Part shown: positions 32,857 through 44,336 of the stretch, in pieces | How the letters are laid out: each line of letters starts with the position of its first letter | Position numbering within the stretch: the first letter of the stretch is position 1 | Assembly (NCBI GenBank): GCA_016188965.1 | Contig: JACPGT010000002.1 | Span: 84,125-148,124, forward strand | Source: Candidatus Micrarchaeota archaeon | Lineage (GTDB): Archaea; Micrarchaeota; Micrarchaeia; Norongarragalinales; Norongarragalinaceae | DNA length: 64,000 nucleotides | Direction of reading: 5' to 3' | Notes under the pieces: generated by a model | The model's input: the letters and a program-made list of their open reading frames with translations, nothing else | What the model was told of the DNA's origin: nothing | The model's database searches: none | Made by a program: the position numbers and the translations under genes

Positions 32857-32969
32857 GCCCCTGTAGCTCAGCCTGGTACAGACGCGGTCGCCTTTTTCTT
32901 TCCGAAAGAAAAATGCGGCCTGCCGAAAAAGAAACGAAGAAAAAGGAATAAACCAAGAGTAAACGAATT
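32857..32969 (+). repeat. 22-nt duplicate of the tRNA-Thr(GGU) 5' end plus hairpin element Y1
   Basis: 32857-32878 is identical to 32970-32991 (GCCCCTGTAGCTCAGCCTGGTA, and the preceding AATT is also shared). It is followed by GC-rich sequence, TTTTTCTTT-CCG-AAAGAAAAA, GC-rich sequence and an AAAAAGAAAC A-rich tail. Confidence 0.7.
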
Positions 32970-33079
32970 GCCCCTGTAGCTCAGCCTGGTAGAGCGCGTC
33001 CATGGTAACACGCGATGGTCGAAAGACTGCCGCGTGCCCATACAGGACGAGGTCGCGCGTTCAATTCGCGTCGGGGGCT
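32970..33079 (+). tRNA. tRNA-Thr(GGU) with 36-nt canonical (37/38) intron
   Basis: Acceptor GCCCCTG/CGGGGGC. Anticodon stem CGTCC/GGACG. Loop AT-GGT-A then intron 33008-33043 forming a relaxed BHB (ATGG/CCAT central helix, CACGCG/CGCGTG inner helix). T arm GCGCG-TTCAATT-CGCGT. Confidence 0.85.
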
Positions 33080-37465: not shown

Positions 37466-37603
37466 GCCTCGGTAGCTCAGACGAGCCCATCTTTTCTTTG
37501 CGAAAGAAAAGCTAGGCGCCCCAAAAGAAACAACAAGAAAAGCCGGATAAAGGAAAAACGAAGCTTCAAAAACAGCGCACAACCAAAAAAGCAATGCAAA
37601 ATT
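37466..37603 (+). repeat. 15-nt duplicate of the tRNA-Thr(CGU) 5' end plus hairpin element Y2
   Basis: 37466-37480 is identical to 37604-37618 (GCCTCGGTAGCTCAG). It is followed by GAGCCCAT-CTTTTCTTT-GCG-AAAGAAAAG-CTAGGCGCCCC-AAAAGAAAC.., which shares 14-nt and 28-nt identical blocks with the tRNA-Leu(UAA) intron. Confidence 0.7.
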
Positions 37604-37675
37604 GCCTCGGTAGCTCAGCGGTAGAGCACCTGTTTCGTAAACAGGGGGTCACGAGTTCGATCCTCGTCCGGGGCT
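37604..37675 (+). tRNA. tRNA-Thr(CGU), intronless
   Basis: GCCTCGG-TA-GCTC-AGCGGTA-GAGC-A-CCTGT-TTCGTAA-ACAGG-GGGTC-ACGAG-TTCGATC-CTCGT-CCGGGGC-T cloverleaf. Confidence 0.9.
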
Positions 37676-43773: not shown

Positions 43774-43780
43774 TTTTAAA
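43774..43780 (+). promoter_or_regulatory. TATA-like box for tRNA-Leu(UAA)
   Basis: TTTTAAA lies 24-30 nt upstream of tRNA position 1. Confidence 0.4.
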
Positions 43781-43803
43781 CTCCCCGAGGCATCAATTCC
43801 TGC

Positions 43804-43986
43804 GGAGGAGTGTCCTGAGTCTGGCCAAAAGGGCAGGACTTAAGAGCCGCCCATCTTTTCTTTTTGATAAAAAGAAAAGCTAGGCGCCCCAAAAGAAAAA
43901 CCGTCTAGCGCGCGAATCATACAGCTTCAGCGGCTAAGTCATCCTGTGGCTTTGTGCCTTCGGGGGTTCAAATCCCCCCTCCTCCA
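43804..43986 (+). tRNA. tRNA-Leu(UAA) with 96-nt canonical (37/38) intron carrying hairpin element Y3
   Basis: Acceptor GGAGGAG/CTCCTCC+A. Anticodon stem CAGGA/TCCTG, loop CT-TAA-G. Intron 43845-43940 forms a strict hBHBh' (central CTTA/TAAG, bulges AGA and TCA, inner GCCGC/GCGGC). Long variable arm. T arm GGGGG-TTCAAAT-CCCCC. Mature length 87 nt. Confidence 0.88.
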
Positions 43987-44066: not shown

Positions 44067-44089
44067 GGGTTCAAATCCCCCCTCCTCCA
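44067..44089 (+). repeat. 23-nt duplicate of the tRNA-Leu(UAA) 3' end
   Basis: GGGTTCAAATCCCCCCTCCTCCA at 44067-44089 is identical to 43964-43986. No matching 5' acceptor strand lies between the copies. Confidence 0.75.
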
Positions 44090-44090
44090 T

Positions 44091-44336
44091 GGTCGCCCCG
44101 GGGGAAACGCTGTTTCCCCCTGGCGCACCCTCCGCCTCGCCCCCTTCCTTTACGATTCTCAAATACTAGTTTGAGGGAGGGGCTGGAGGACATCACAATT
44201 TCCTGCCGGAAATTGTGTGGGCCCCCAATTCCGTAAGAATTGGGAGCACCTGAAACTGAAGGGGGAAACGTGGTTACCGACGGTCTTGCTTGACCGTCGG
44301 TTTCTTCCGCGCCCCCTGCGGTTCCGGTTGCAAATC
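44091..44336 (+). repeat. full-length copy (X2) of the G/C-tract multi-hairpin repeat family X
   Basis: Modules: GGTCGCCCCGGG, hairpin GGGGGAAAC/GTTTCCCCC, CCTCCGCCTCGCCCCC, GAGGGAGGGGC, hairpin CACAATTTCC/GGAAATTGTG, hairpin CCCAATTC/GAATTGGG, hairpin ACCGACGGTC/GACCGTCGGT, end CCCCCTGCGGTTCCGGTTGCAAATC. Collinear with X3. Confidence 0.65.

What the first reader, a model, noticed from the sequence alone, without database searches (positions are those of the whole stretch)
43845..43940. The 96-nt tRNA-Leu(UAA) intron carries the same Y element core found beside the tRNA-Thr genes
The intron sits at the canonical 37/38 site in a textbook hBHBh' motif: outer CAGGA/TCCTG, bulge TCA, central CTTA/TAAG, bulge AGA, inner GCCGC/GCGGC. 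Its interior contains CCCATCTTTTCTTT (14 nt) and AAAGAAAAGCTAGGCGCCCCAAAAGAAA (28 nt). Both blocks are identical to Y2 at 37486-37530, with a longer A/T hairpin (CTTTTCTTTTT-GAT-AAAAAGAAAAG). One sequence module therefore exists both as a spliceable tRNA intron and as an extragenic insert next to tRNA fragments. This would fit intron mobility or retro-insertion, or an element that colonises tRNA loci and is tolerated when it lands in a BHB context. Archaeal tRNA introns are usually 12-60 nt, and long ones sometimes encode functional RNAs such as C/D guides. I see no C/D boxes here.
Basis: partly seen in the sequence, partly recalled or inferred. Interest (0 to 1): 0.6.

Follow-up and report, generated by a model that had tools for sequence, protein, structure and literature searches.

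The report
Mobile three-arm module inside tRNA-Leu intron
The intron of this tiny archaeon's leucine tRNA gene is built from a small repeated DNA module that also sits in other tRNA introns and at gene ends, which gives a direct view of how archaeal tRNA genes gain and swap introns.

Summary
Window 43804-43986 is the genome's only tRNA-Leu(UAA) gene. It is split at 37/38 by a 96-nt intron (43845-43940) with a strict bulge-helix-bulge motif. The 14-nt and 28-nt blocks are identical to those at 37486-37530, where chance predicts none.

The shared core belongs to a family of about 19 copies in this Micrarchaeota genome. Each copy has a pyrimidine arm, a complementary purine arm and a third purine arm that mirrors the second. 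Twelve of the 19 lie in or beside tRNA genes, and three of those are inside introns: Leu-UAA, Cys-GCA and the T-loop of Leu-UAG.

In relatives the module fills introns of at least nine tRNA types at 37/38 or 59/60. Within one genus it is present or absent at a syntenic tRNA-Thr(UGU) locus, which points to an intron gain.

The "extragenic" Y2 copy aligns as the collapsed exon 1 plus intron of an intron-bearing tRNA-Thr(CGU) seen in another genus.

The Leu(UAA) intron site is old, being shared by three families, but its content was recently replaced.

This is a new variant of the transposed tRNA introns known from Thermoproteales. This scan has met the same family before in other genomes. How the module moves is unknown, and no RNA data exist.

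The parts
43775..43781 (+). TTTTAAA, a TATA-like box 23-29 nt upstream of tRNA position 1 (inferred promoter)
   Evidence: Read directly from the sequence. Inference only; no transcript data exist.
43804..43844 (+). tRNA-Leu(UAA) exon 1 (positions 1-37; anticodon TAA at 43841-43843)
   Evidence: ARAGORN on the spliced and unspliced sequence. It is the only GGACTTAAG...T-arm match in the genome.
43845..43940 (+). 96-nt BHB intron at the canonical 37/38 site
   Evidence: BHB 4/5/6. The outer and inner helices also appear in the minimum-free-energy fold.
43855..43865 (+). Pyrimidine arm (Y) of the module, CTTTTCTTTTT
   Evidence: Perfect 11-bp hairpin with 43869-43879.
43869..43879 (+). Purine arm (R), AAAAAGAAAAG
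43880..43890 (+). Spacer CTAGGCGCCCC, the signature of module subfamily a and identical to the Y2 spacer
   Evidence: The same spacer type occurs in relatives of other families.
43891..43900 (+). Third arm (R3), AAAAGAAAAA, the mirror image of the purine arm
   Evidence: 10 of 11 positions mirror the purine arm.
43907..43919 (+). Tail motif AGCGCGCGAATCA, shared with other copies of the family
   Evidence: The GCGCGCGAATC tail follows the core at G000 C17:176784 and C4:34656 and in the G002 Leu intron.
43941..43986 (+). tRNA-Leu(UAA) exon 2 (position 38 to the discriminator; no encoded CCA)
37466..37485 (+). Stub: tRNA-Thr(CGU) positions 1-15 plus ACGAG. It aligns as exon 1 of an intron-bearing tRNA-Thr(CGU) with a 17-nt internal deletion.
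   Evidence: Alignment with the G007 gene. The stub is shared by G001 and G002, where G002 keeps a longer, degenerate version.
37486..37530 (+). Y2 module: CCCAT, Y arm, GCG loop, R arm, spacer and third arm
   Evidence: It is homologous to the 5' part of the G007 tRNA-Thr(CGU) intron.
37531..37603 (+). A-rich remainder of the former intron, ending exactly at position 1 of the complete tRNA
   Evidence: It shares the GCCGGA...AAAAA...GCTT stretch with the G007 intron.
37604..37675 (+). Complete, intronless tRNA-Thr(CGU)
   Evidence: ARAGORN and Rfam RF00005, 66.8 bits.
32893..32934 (+). Y1 module (subfamily b), 36 nt upstream of tRNA-Thr(GGU) at 32970-33079
   Evidence: Structure-based scan and context table.
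44067..44089 (+). 23-nt duplicate of the tRNA-Leu 3' end behind an inserted hairpin element: a gene-end duplication of the kind that accompanies this element class
   Evidence: BLAST self-match. Comparable 3' stubs occur at G000 C4 tRNA-Leu(UAG) and G001 tRNA-Ala(UGC).

Best explanation
Shown.
- The 96 nt are a genuine BHB intron of the single-copy tRNA-Leu(UAA) gene.
- The genome encodes a splicing endonuclease 390 aa long that matches the broad-specificity epsilon2 enzyme of Micrarchaeum along its full length.
- The body of the intron is one copy of a lineage-specific, non-coding module family. The module runs: pyrimidine arm, loop, complementary purine arm, spacer, mirror-image purine arm, then often a GCGAATC-type tail.
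- The family sits in tRNA introns at 37/38 and 59/60.
- It also sits between decayed gene-end copies and intact genes, both tRNA and protein-coding.

Inferred.
- The module is, or rides on, mobile DNA. When it lies where exon and intron ends can form a BHB it is spliced out and persists as an intron. Elsewhere it survives only where a duplicated gene end keeps the gene whole.
- In tRNA-Leu(UAA) the 37/38 intron is old, but its content turns over. In the G000/G002 lineage the older CTTTCATG-spacer module was replaced by the subfamily-a version that is also present at Y2. The route could be gene conversion between copies or re-insertion. This replacement explains the exact 28-nt and 14-nt identity.
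- Y2 itself is the remnant of an intron-bearing tRNA-Thr(CGU).
- The three arms co-vary, so some folded form is under selection. It could be a class II intrastrand triplex, more plausibly in DNA, or two alternative helices.

The enzyme or process that moves the module is unknown.
For: tRNA, intron and enzyme.
- Intron and BHB.
- EndA: PF01974 hit in a 390-aa ORF that matches PDB 4FZ2 along its full length at E=4e-131. 4FZ2 is the broad-specificity epsilon2 enzyme (PMC3488258).

The family in G000.
- 19 modules against 0 in shuffles.
- 12 of 19 lie in or within 150 nt of about 40 tRNA genes, which cover roughly 1% of the genome.
- Module-bearing introns occur in Leu-UAA, in Cys-GCA (136 nt) and in the T-loop of Leu-UAG.

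Relatives.
- Module introns at 37/38: Leu-UAA, Leu-CAG, Thr-CGU, Thr-UGU and Pro-UGG.
- Module introns at 59/60: Leu-UAA, Leu-UAG, Leu-CAG, Ala-UGC and Ser-GGA.

Gain.
- At the syntenic tRNA-Thr(UGU) locus of genus g6, G015 and G019 are intronless. G024 carries an 85-nt module intron (BHB 4/2/5) and G022 a 143-nt one.
- Seven further genomes outside that genus are also intronless.

Content turnover.
- tRNA-Cys is intronless in two genera. In same-genus G001 and G002 it has unrelated 46-nt and 38-nt introns, and in G000 a 136-nt module intron.
- Of 29 Leu-UAA genes in the order, 6 are intronless, 4 have other introns and 19 have the module.
- The spacer CTTTCATG is shared by families f1 and f10, but it is replaced in G000 and G002.

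Y2 as a former intron. G032 keeps both an intron-bearing and an intronless Thr-CGU gene 1.2 kb apart.

Arm covariation.
- In 18 orthologous Leu introns there are 15 distinct arms. Mirror identity is 159 of 174 positions, against 131 +/- 2.9 for shuffles (maximum 140 in 2000).

Range.
- The exact pattern occurs in 74 of 401 genomes of the class. The same pattern read backwards occurs in 0.
Against: - There is no RNA evidence that the intron is excised, because no RNA run holds this DNA.
- No candidate mobilising enzyme was found. RVT_1, Y1_Tnp, TnpB and Cas1 are not detected in the 89%-complete assembly, which has only two tyrosine recombinases.
- The sense-strand T-runs in the pyrimidine arm should hinder archaeal transcription through the intron. 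This is unexplained.
- Arm covariation in old orthologous introns, together with the fixed sense orientation in all intron copies inspected, would also fit a selected function rather than pure selfishness.
- Several relatives' tRNA calls rest on ARAGORN plus my own relaxed BHB script.
Confidence: 0.7

Rival explanations
1. The module is a selected functional element of tRNA loci rather than mobile DNA. Possible roles include a structured RNA domain of the pre-tRNA or excised intron, or a DNA signal acting on transcription or replication. On this reading copies are alike because of shared function.
For: - The three arms co-vary in orthologous Leu(UAA) introns across three families.
- Orientation is always sense in the intron copies and upstream copies inspected.
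- The spacer and tail motifs are conserved across families.
Against: - Copies also lie at the ends of protein-coding genes with 28-41-nt duplications.
- The module is present or absent at a syntenic locus within a genus.
- Orthologous sites hold different subfamilies.
- Two large families of the class lack it entirely, 0/94 and 0/83.
- The distance from the module to the downstream gene start varies from 14 to 74 nt, so it is not a fixed-spacing promoter.
- This reading is not exclusive with mobility.
Confidence: 0.15
2. The stub-module-tRNA arrangements and the shared sequences are scars of integrase-mediated integration of plasmids or viruses into tRNA genes. On this model attP carries a tRNA end and an intron, as proposed for Caldiarchaeum, and most of the element was later deleted.
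For: - Direct repeats of tRNA 5' or 3' ends flank the inserts.
- Two tyrosine recombinase genes are present.
- The published model gives the layout 5' fragment, element, reconstituted tRNA with a new intron (PMC3293823).
Against: - The inserts are only 40-140 nt and carry no integrase remnants.
- They recur at many loci at that same small size.
- Duplication length varies from 13 to 41 nt.
- Protein-gene ends are hit as well.
- Intron copies have no flanking duplication.
- A scan of viral contigs gave only chance matches.
Confidence: 0.08
3. Retro-insertion: excised intron RNA, possibly circular, is reverse-transcribed and pasted into new sites. The non-intron copies would then be retro-copies of introns.
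For: - Sense orientation is fixed relative to the host gene.
- Gene-end duplications start or stop at the ends of the mature tRNA or at the ATG, which hints at an RNA template.
Against: - No RVT_1 reverse transcriptase is found in G000.
- The non-intron copies lack BHB-defined termini.
- Y2 carries exon-1 sequence directly joined to the intron start, which is not what an excised intron would give.
Confidence: 0.05
4. The match is a chance coincidence of low-complexity A/T-rich sequence.
For: The 19-base A-rich pattern hits random AT-rich bacteria and viruses in very large collections.
Against: - The 28-mer is expected 0 times in window shuffles.
- The genome holds 19 structured modules against 0 in shuffles.
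- The pattern read backwards gives 0 hits in 401 genomes, against 74 genomes for the true pattern.
- The GC-rich spacer is also identical between the two copies.
Confidence: 0.01

Closest known systems
Transposed tRNA intron families of Thermoproteales (Fujishima et al. 2010, Mol Biol Evol 27:2233, as summarised in PMC4090602 and in preprint 10.64898/2026.10.13.758758)
   Same: [quoted passage not shown] The host has a broad-specificity splicing endonuclease. The mechanism of spread is unknown.
   Different: - The lineage is different: DPANN Micrarchaeota with an epsilon2 EndA rather than alpha2beta2.
- The same module also sits outside introns, at tRNA and protein-gene ends with duplicated gene ends.
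- It has a defined three-arm architecture of hairpin plus mirror arm.
- One tRNA (Thr-CGU) shows the intron state in one genus and the state stub, intron, complete gene in another.
- I could not read the 2010 paper itself.
Class II intrastrand triplex repeats of bacteria (PIT elements / BoxC / TMECO; Holder et al. 2015, PMC4666352)
   Same: The domain order is the same: pyrimidine domain at the 5' end, then the purine domain, then a 3' reverse-Hoogsteen domain antiparallel to the purine domain, giving A-A-T and G-G-C triads. Both are multi-copy, conserved and intergenic, and the bacterial repeats are linked to genomic instability.
   Different: - The host is archaeal.
- The arms are A/T-rich, not G/C-rich.
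- The module resides inside spliced tRNA introns.
- Triplex formation is untested here, and an alternative pyrimidine-arm/third-arm helix fits the Leu(UAA) set equally well.
- No sequence homology to the bacterial repeats is claimed.
tRNA gene disruption by integrative elements in Caldiarchaeum subterraneum (Sugahara et al. 2012, PMC3293823)
   Same: A 5' tRNA-Thr fragment lies upstream of a reconstituted tRNA-Thr, with mobile DNA between them. Intron gain is tied to that event and is variable within a population.
   Different: There the insert is 1.8 kb and encodes a recombinase. Here it is about 120 nt, non-coding, and is itself the former intron.
MITEs / REP-like small non-autonomous elements
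   Same: Both are short, structured, non-coding and multi-copy, and copies can nest inside one another. Composite copies form long palindromes: module, TTTGATTTGCAAATCAAA, inverted module.
   Different: There is no fixed-length target duplication and no partner transposase was found. Single-arm copies lack terminal inverted repeats.

Membership tests
Archaeal BHB (EndA-spliced) tRNA intron | Removing the insert restores a canonical tRNA | tested here: met
   ARAGORN calls an 88-nt tRNA-Leu(UAA) on the spliced sequence. It is the only solution among 99 strict-BHB splice combinations.
Archaeal BHB (EndA-spliced) tRNA intron | Two 3-nt bulges separated by a 4-bp helix at the exon-intron junctions, flanked by helices | tested here: met
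   Central helix 4/4, inner 5 bp, outer 6 bp at 43844|43845 and 43940|43941. The outer and inner helices appear in the minimum-free-energy fold, but the 4-bp A/U helix does not.
Archaeal BHB (EndA-spliced) tRNA intron | The host encodes a tRNA splicing endonuclease able to cut the motif | tested here: met
   PF01974 hit in the genome. The 390-aa ORF matches epsilon2 EndA 4FZ2 at E=4e-131 over residues 14-390, and that enzyme has broad specificity.
Archaeal BHB (EndA-spliced) tRNA intron | Excision observed in RNA | not testable with these tools
   No RNA run holds this DNA.
Transposed tRNA intron family (Thermoproteales type) | Related intron sequence in tRNAs of different isotype or at different positions, not explained by whole-gene duplication | tested here: met
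   In G000 the module is in Leu-UAA 37/38, Cys-GCA 37/38 and Leu-UAG 59/60. In relatives it is in Thr, Pro, Ser, Ala and Leu isoacceptors.
Transposed tRNA intron family (Thermoproteales type) | Gain after species divergence (presence or absence at orthologous loci) | tested here: met
   At the syntenic Thr-UGU locus of genus g6, two genomes have the intron, two lack it and seven outgroup genomes lack it. Polarity is by parsimony only.
Class II intrastrand triplex motif (PIT/BoxC/TMECO) | Domain order: 5' pyrimidine, then purine, then 3' third strand on one DNA strand | tested here: met
.
Class II intrastrand triplex motif (PIT/BoxC/TMECO) | The third domain is the mirror of the purine domain (A-A-T and G-G-C triads) | tested here: inconclusive
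   - In the Leu(UAA) set the mirror match is 159/174, direct repeat 143/174, and shuffles at most 140.
- In the larger set 27 of 73 copies are perfect mirrors, against 4 perfect direct repeats.
- Antiparallel pairing of the pyrimidine arm with the third arm, allowing G-U, also scores 159/174.
- In the larger set the mirror beats that pairing only 30 to 17, with 26 ties.
Class II intrastrand triplex motif (PIT/BoxC/TMECO) | Physical triplex formation | not testable with these tools
   This needs UV melting, CD or chemical probing of DNA and RNA oligonucleotides.
MITE | Terminal inverted repeats, a fixed short target duplication and a cognate transposase | tested here: not met
   Duplications vary from 13 to 41 nt, and intron copies have none. 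No RVT_1, Y1_Tnp, TnpB or Cas1 was found. Only composite copies are palindromic.
Integrase att-site scar | A tRNA-end direct repeat flanking an element that carries, or once carried, an integrase | tested here: inconclusive
   The repeats are present. The insert is about 120 nt with no coding remnant. The two tyrosine recombinases lie elsewhere in the genome.
C/D box sRNA-bearing intron | C (RUGAUGA) and D (CUGA) boxes | tested here: not met
   Neither motif is in 43845-43940. Rfam gives no snoRNA or sRNA family, even at E<=1.
Group I intron of tRNA-Leu(UAA) (cyanobacterial/plastid type) | A ribozyme core of about 200 nt or more, inserted within the anticodon (34/35) | tested here: not met
   The intron is 96 nt and lies at 37/38. 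Rfam gives no Intron_gpI match.

The most novel reading that the evidence does not exclude
The module is a DNA-level triplex-forming (class II intrastrand) element that creates new BHB introns in tRNA genes. When a break at its border is repaired using the gene's own transcript as template, it produces the stub, element, complete gene arrangements. The duplications run exactly to tRNA position 1, to the ATG of a GAPDH gene, or to the tRNA 3' end. In one case the copy is followed by a T-run such as a primary transcript would carry. The intron state and the gene-end-duplication state would then be two outcomes of a single process.
Probability: 0.15. Interest if true: 0.85.

Novelty: new variant of a known kind. 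Interest (0 to 1): 0.62.

Why it matters
How archaeal tRNA genes acquire introns is still open. [quoted passage not shown]

This lineage offers what those studies lacked:
- a recognisable intron module that also exists outside introns;
- within-genus presence or absence at a syntenic tRNA locus;
- replacement of intron content at fixed sites;
- one tRNA caught in two states, as an intron in one genus and as exon-1 stub, intron, complete gene in another.

The three-arm design also gives a concrete structure that can be tested at the bench.

Tried and rejected
- Pattern scans of genome contigs and viral contigs with the A-rich core returned almost only chance hits in AT-rich bacteria and viruses. 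One Micrarchaeota contig (L073) was relevant. These scans give no evidence on range or on viral origin.
- A covariance model built from 51 copies had no consensus base pairs, because MAFFT did not keep the arms in register. It was not used. An exact pattern with a reversed-pattern control replaced it.
- No RNA holder was listed.
- Laying four groundwater DNA runs gave only contigs. Two joints (37480 to 37603, and 43844 to 43941) could be empty-site or intronless alleles. Their sides are under 30 nt at 85% likeness, so they may come from other organisms. They are not used as evidence.
- ARAGORN at -ps90 gave 464 mostly false tRNA calls and was discarded.
- Promoter idea for the A-rich arms: rejected, because the distance to the downstream gene start varies from 14 to 74 nt.
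- A second hairpin that would present the third arm in its loop appears in the G000 fold, but it is not conserved in other copies.
- Target-site duplication of the palindromic anticodon loop CTTAAG as the source of the BHB: not general, because other host tRNAs have their own complementary intron 3' ends.
- Sub-threshold Rfam tmRNA hits only reflect the tRNA-like ends.
- Fujishima 2010 could not be fetched.

Full report
**The observation**

The window is G000:C1:84125-148124 of a 1.37-Mb, 58% G+C, 89%-complete archaeal assembly. A related contig is titled Candidatus Micrarchaeota (L073), and earlier notes of this scan give the same placement.

ARAGORN with default settings and Rfam at gathering score see only tRNA-Thr(CGU) at 37604-37675. 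When 43845-43940 is removed, ARAGORN calls an 88-nt tRNA-Leu(UAA). These boundaries give a 4-bp central helix, a 5-bp inner helix and a 6-bp outer helix around two 3-nt bulges. Among 99 strict-BHB splice combinations in the region, this is the only one that yields a tRNA.

The minimum-free-energy fold contains the outer helix, the inner helix and the A/T hairpin, but not the weak 4-bp A/U helix. The gene is the only tRNA-Leu(UAA) candidate in the assembly.

The 14-nt and 28-nt blocks occur only at the two places named, where chance expects 0.05 and 0.

**What the shared core is**

BLAST and a small profile found further copies of the core, nearly all beside tRNA genes. Reading them showed a common design: a pyrimidine arm, a short loop, a perfectly complementary purine arm, a spacer of 5-14 nt, and a third purine arm that is the mirror image of the second. 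A GCGAATC-type tail often follows.

A scan for that design finds 19 copies in the genome and none in five shuffles. Twelve of about 19 copies lie in or within 150 nt of about 40 tRNA genes. They break down as follows:
- Three are inside introns: Leu-UAA at 37/38, Cys-GCA at 37/38 (136 nt with nested hairpins), and a T-loop (59/60) intron of a tRNA-Leu(UAG) that ARAGORN had missed.
- Five lie between a 13-29-nt copy of a tRNA 5' end and the complete tRNA: Thr-GGU, Thr-CGU, Ala-CGC (twice) and Pro.
- Four lie just downstream of tRNAs.

The other copies sit at the ends of protein-coding genes. One lies between a 41-nt copy of a GAPDH gene's start (from the ATG) and the full gene.

The tRNA-Phe intron shares a different repeat with seven non-intron sites, so introns built from dispersed repeats are not unique to this module.

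**Relatives**

Same-genus genomes G001 and G002 have the Leu(UAA) intron at the same site, with diverged modules.

Across 29 Leu(UAA) genes of the order, 6 have no intron at 37/38, 4 have introns without the hairpin, and 19 carry the module. The spacer CTTTCATG and the 5' GAAAC are shared between families f1 and f10, so the module-bearing intron is old.

G000 and G002 instead carry the CTAGGCGCCCC-type spacer and the GCGAATC tail of subfamily a, the type present at Y2. Same-genus G001 keeps the old type.

Some genomes of genus g24 have a composite inside the same Leu intron: module, an 18-nt palindrome, then an inverted module. The same composite fills the T-loop intron of tRNA-Ala(UGC) in G038.

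In other genomes the module fills these introns:
- at 37/38: Leu-CAG, Thr-CGU, Thr-UGU and Pro-UGG;
- at 59/60: Leu-UAA, Leu-UAG, Leu-CAG, Ala-UGC and Ser-GGA.

In every intron copy I inspected (about 30) the pyrimidine arm comes first on the tRNA sense strand. The only exceptions are the second arms of composites.

**Gain and turnover**

At the syntenic tRNA-Thr(UGU) locus of genus g6, where flanks align over 1.5 kb, G015 and G019 are intronless. G024 has an 85-nt intron that is essentially one module (BHB 4/2/5), and G022 has the same intron with nested hairpins (143 nt). Seven genomes of other genera are intronless. Parsimony makes this a gain.

tRNA-Cys is intronless in two genera. At the same site it has unrelated 46-nt and 38-nt introns in G001 and G002, and the 136-nt module intron in G000. 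All three keep a GCGG-type 3' strand that pairs with the anticodon loop.

**Y2 reinterpreted**

I aligned G000 37466-37620 with the intron-bearing tRNA-Thr(CGU) of G007. The stub plus ACGAG is exon 1 with a 17-nt internal deletion. It abuts the CCCA start of the intron at the same junction, and the homology continues about 75 nt into the intron.

The complete intronless tRNA begins exactly where exon 2 should begin. G001 and G002 share this layout. G002 has a longer degenerate stub and a module of a different subfamily, and the arms of G000 and G001 differ in a three-way compensated manner.

G032 holds both an intron-bearing and an intronless Thr(CGU) gene 1.2 kb apart. So the same tRNA shows an intron state, a two-gene state, and a state of stub, intron and complete gene.

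**The three arms**

In the 18 orthologous Leu(UAA) introns with a hairpin, which were found through exon sequence and not through the hairpin, there are 15 different arms. The third arm matches the mirror of the purine arm at 159 of 174 positions. A direct repeat matches at 143. Shuffled arms match at 131 +/- 2.9, with a maximum of 140 in 2000 shuffles.

This is the class II intrastrand triplex layout defined for bacterial PIT/BoxC/TMECO repeats.

I could not separate it cleanly from a second reading, because the arms are nearly mirror-symmetric. Antiparallel pairing of the pyrimidine arm with the third arm, allowing G-U, also scores 159 of 174. In a larger set selected by hairpin alone, 27 of 73 copies are perfect mirrors, 18 are perfect in that pairing and 4 are perfect direct repeats. 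The mirror beats the pairing 30 to 17, with 26 ties.

Some folded form is under selection. Whether it is a triplex or a pair of alternative helices, and whether it forms in DNA or in RNA, is open.

**Range**

One exact arm variant of the pattern occurs in 74 of 401 genomes sampled from the phylum, all of which belong to the same class. The pattern read backwards occurs in none. Two large families lack it, 0/94 and 0/83.

**Machinery**

The genome encodes a 390-aa EndA that matches the epsilon2 enzyme of Micrarchaeum (PDB 4FZ2) end to end at E=4e-131. That enzyme cuts strict and relaxed BHB motifs. This fits the T-loop and relaxed-motif introns seen here.

I found no RVT_1, Y1_Tnp, TnpB or Cas1, and only two tyrosine recombinases. 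The assembly is incomplete, so these absences are provisional.

**Comparison with what is known**

Intron families shared across tRNA types are known from Thermoproteales, and their mechanism is unknown. A 5' tRNA-Thr fragment upstream of a reconstituted, newly intron-bearing tRNA-Thr was described in Caldiarchaeum, with a 1.8-kb recombinase-bearing insert. A 2026 Asgard study found no arrival route. I found no paper on mirror-repeat or triplex-type modules in archaeal tRNA introns.

This scan has met the same family before in other genomes and reached similar readings. Notes on this genome describe the gene-end duplications.

- the orthology-based reading of Y2 as a former intron;
- the age of the Leu(UAA) intron and the swap of its content;
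- the Thr(UGU) gain;
- the reversed-pattern control across the class.

**Limits**
- There is no RNA evidence.
- Polarity rests on parsimony.
- Several tRNA calls in relatives depend on my BHB script plus ARAGORN.

Noticed in passing
G000:C10:9100-9330 (L333): A module lies between a 41-nt copy of the start of a GAPDH-like gene (from the ATG, MVRIAINGFGRIG...) and the complete gene. This is the protein-gene counterpart of the stub-module-tRNA layout.
   Followed up: partly
G000:C4:48650-48930 (L331): tRNA-Leu(UAG), missed by ARAGORN, has a 53-nt module intron in the T-loop (59/60). Behind the gene come a T-run, a roughly 80-nt hairpin insert and a 14-nt copy of the tRNA 3' end.
   Followed up: partly
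G000:C11:670-872, and window 44117-44143: The 107-nt intron of tRNA-Phe(GAA) shares a 27-38-nt block with seven non-intron sites. These include the repeat just downstream of tRNA-Leu(UAA) in this window and sites beside tRNA-Tyr and tRNA-Thr(UGU).
   Followed up: no
L276 (G032:C10:7121-10206): There are two tRNA-Thr(CGU) genes 1.2 kb apart. One has a predicted 180-nt module-bearing intron and the other is intronless.
   Followed up: no
L320, L321 (G048, G049 tRNA-Leu(UAA)) and L009 (G038 tRNA-Ala(UGC)): A composite palindromic element (module, TTTGATTTGCAAATCAAA, inverted module) is nested in a 37/38 intron in two genomes and in a T-loop intron of another tRNA in a third genome of the same genus.
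   Followed up: partly
G000:C1:303680-303850 (outside the window): tRNA-Ala(CGC) is preceded by two tandem units. Each is a decayed 5' tRNA copy (15 nt and 29 nt) plus a module plus a CTTTGCG-N3-CGCAAAG hairpin that ends exactly at tRNA position 1.
   Followed up: no
window 43855-43865: The sense strand of the intron carries T4 and T5 runs (CTTTTCTTTTT), and G002 has T6. Such runs normally favour archaeal transcription termination, yet they sit inside an essential pre-tRNA.
   Followed up: no
G000:C11:30918-32090 (L269:880-2052): A 390-aa three-unit (epsilon2-type) tRNA splicing endonuclease is a full-length match to PDB 4FZ2.
   Followed up: yes
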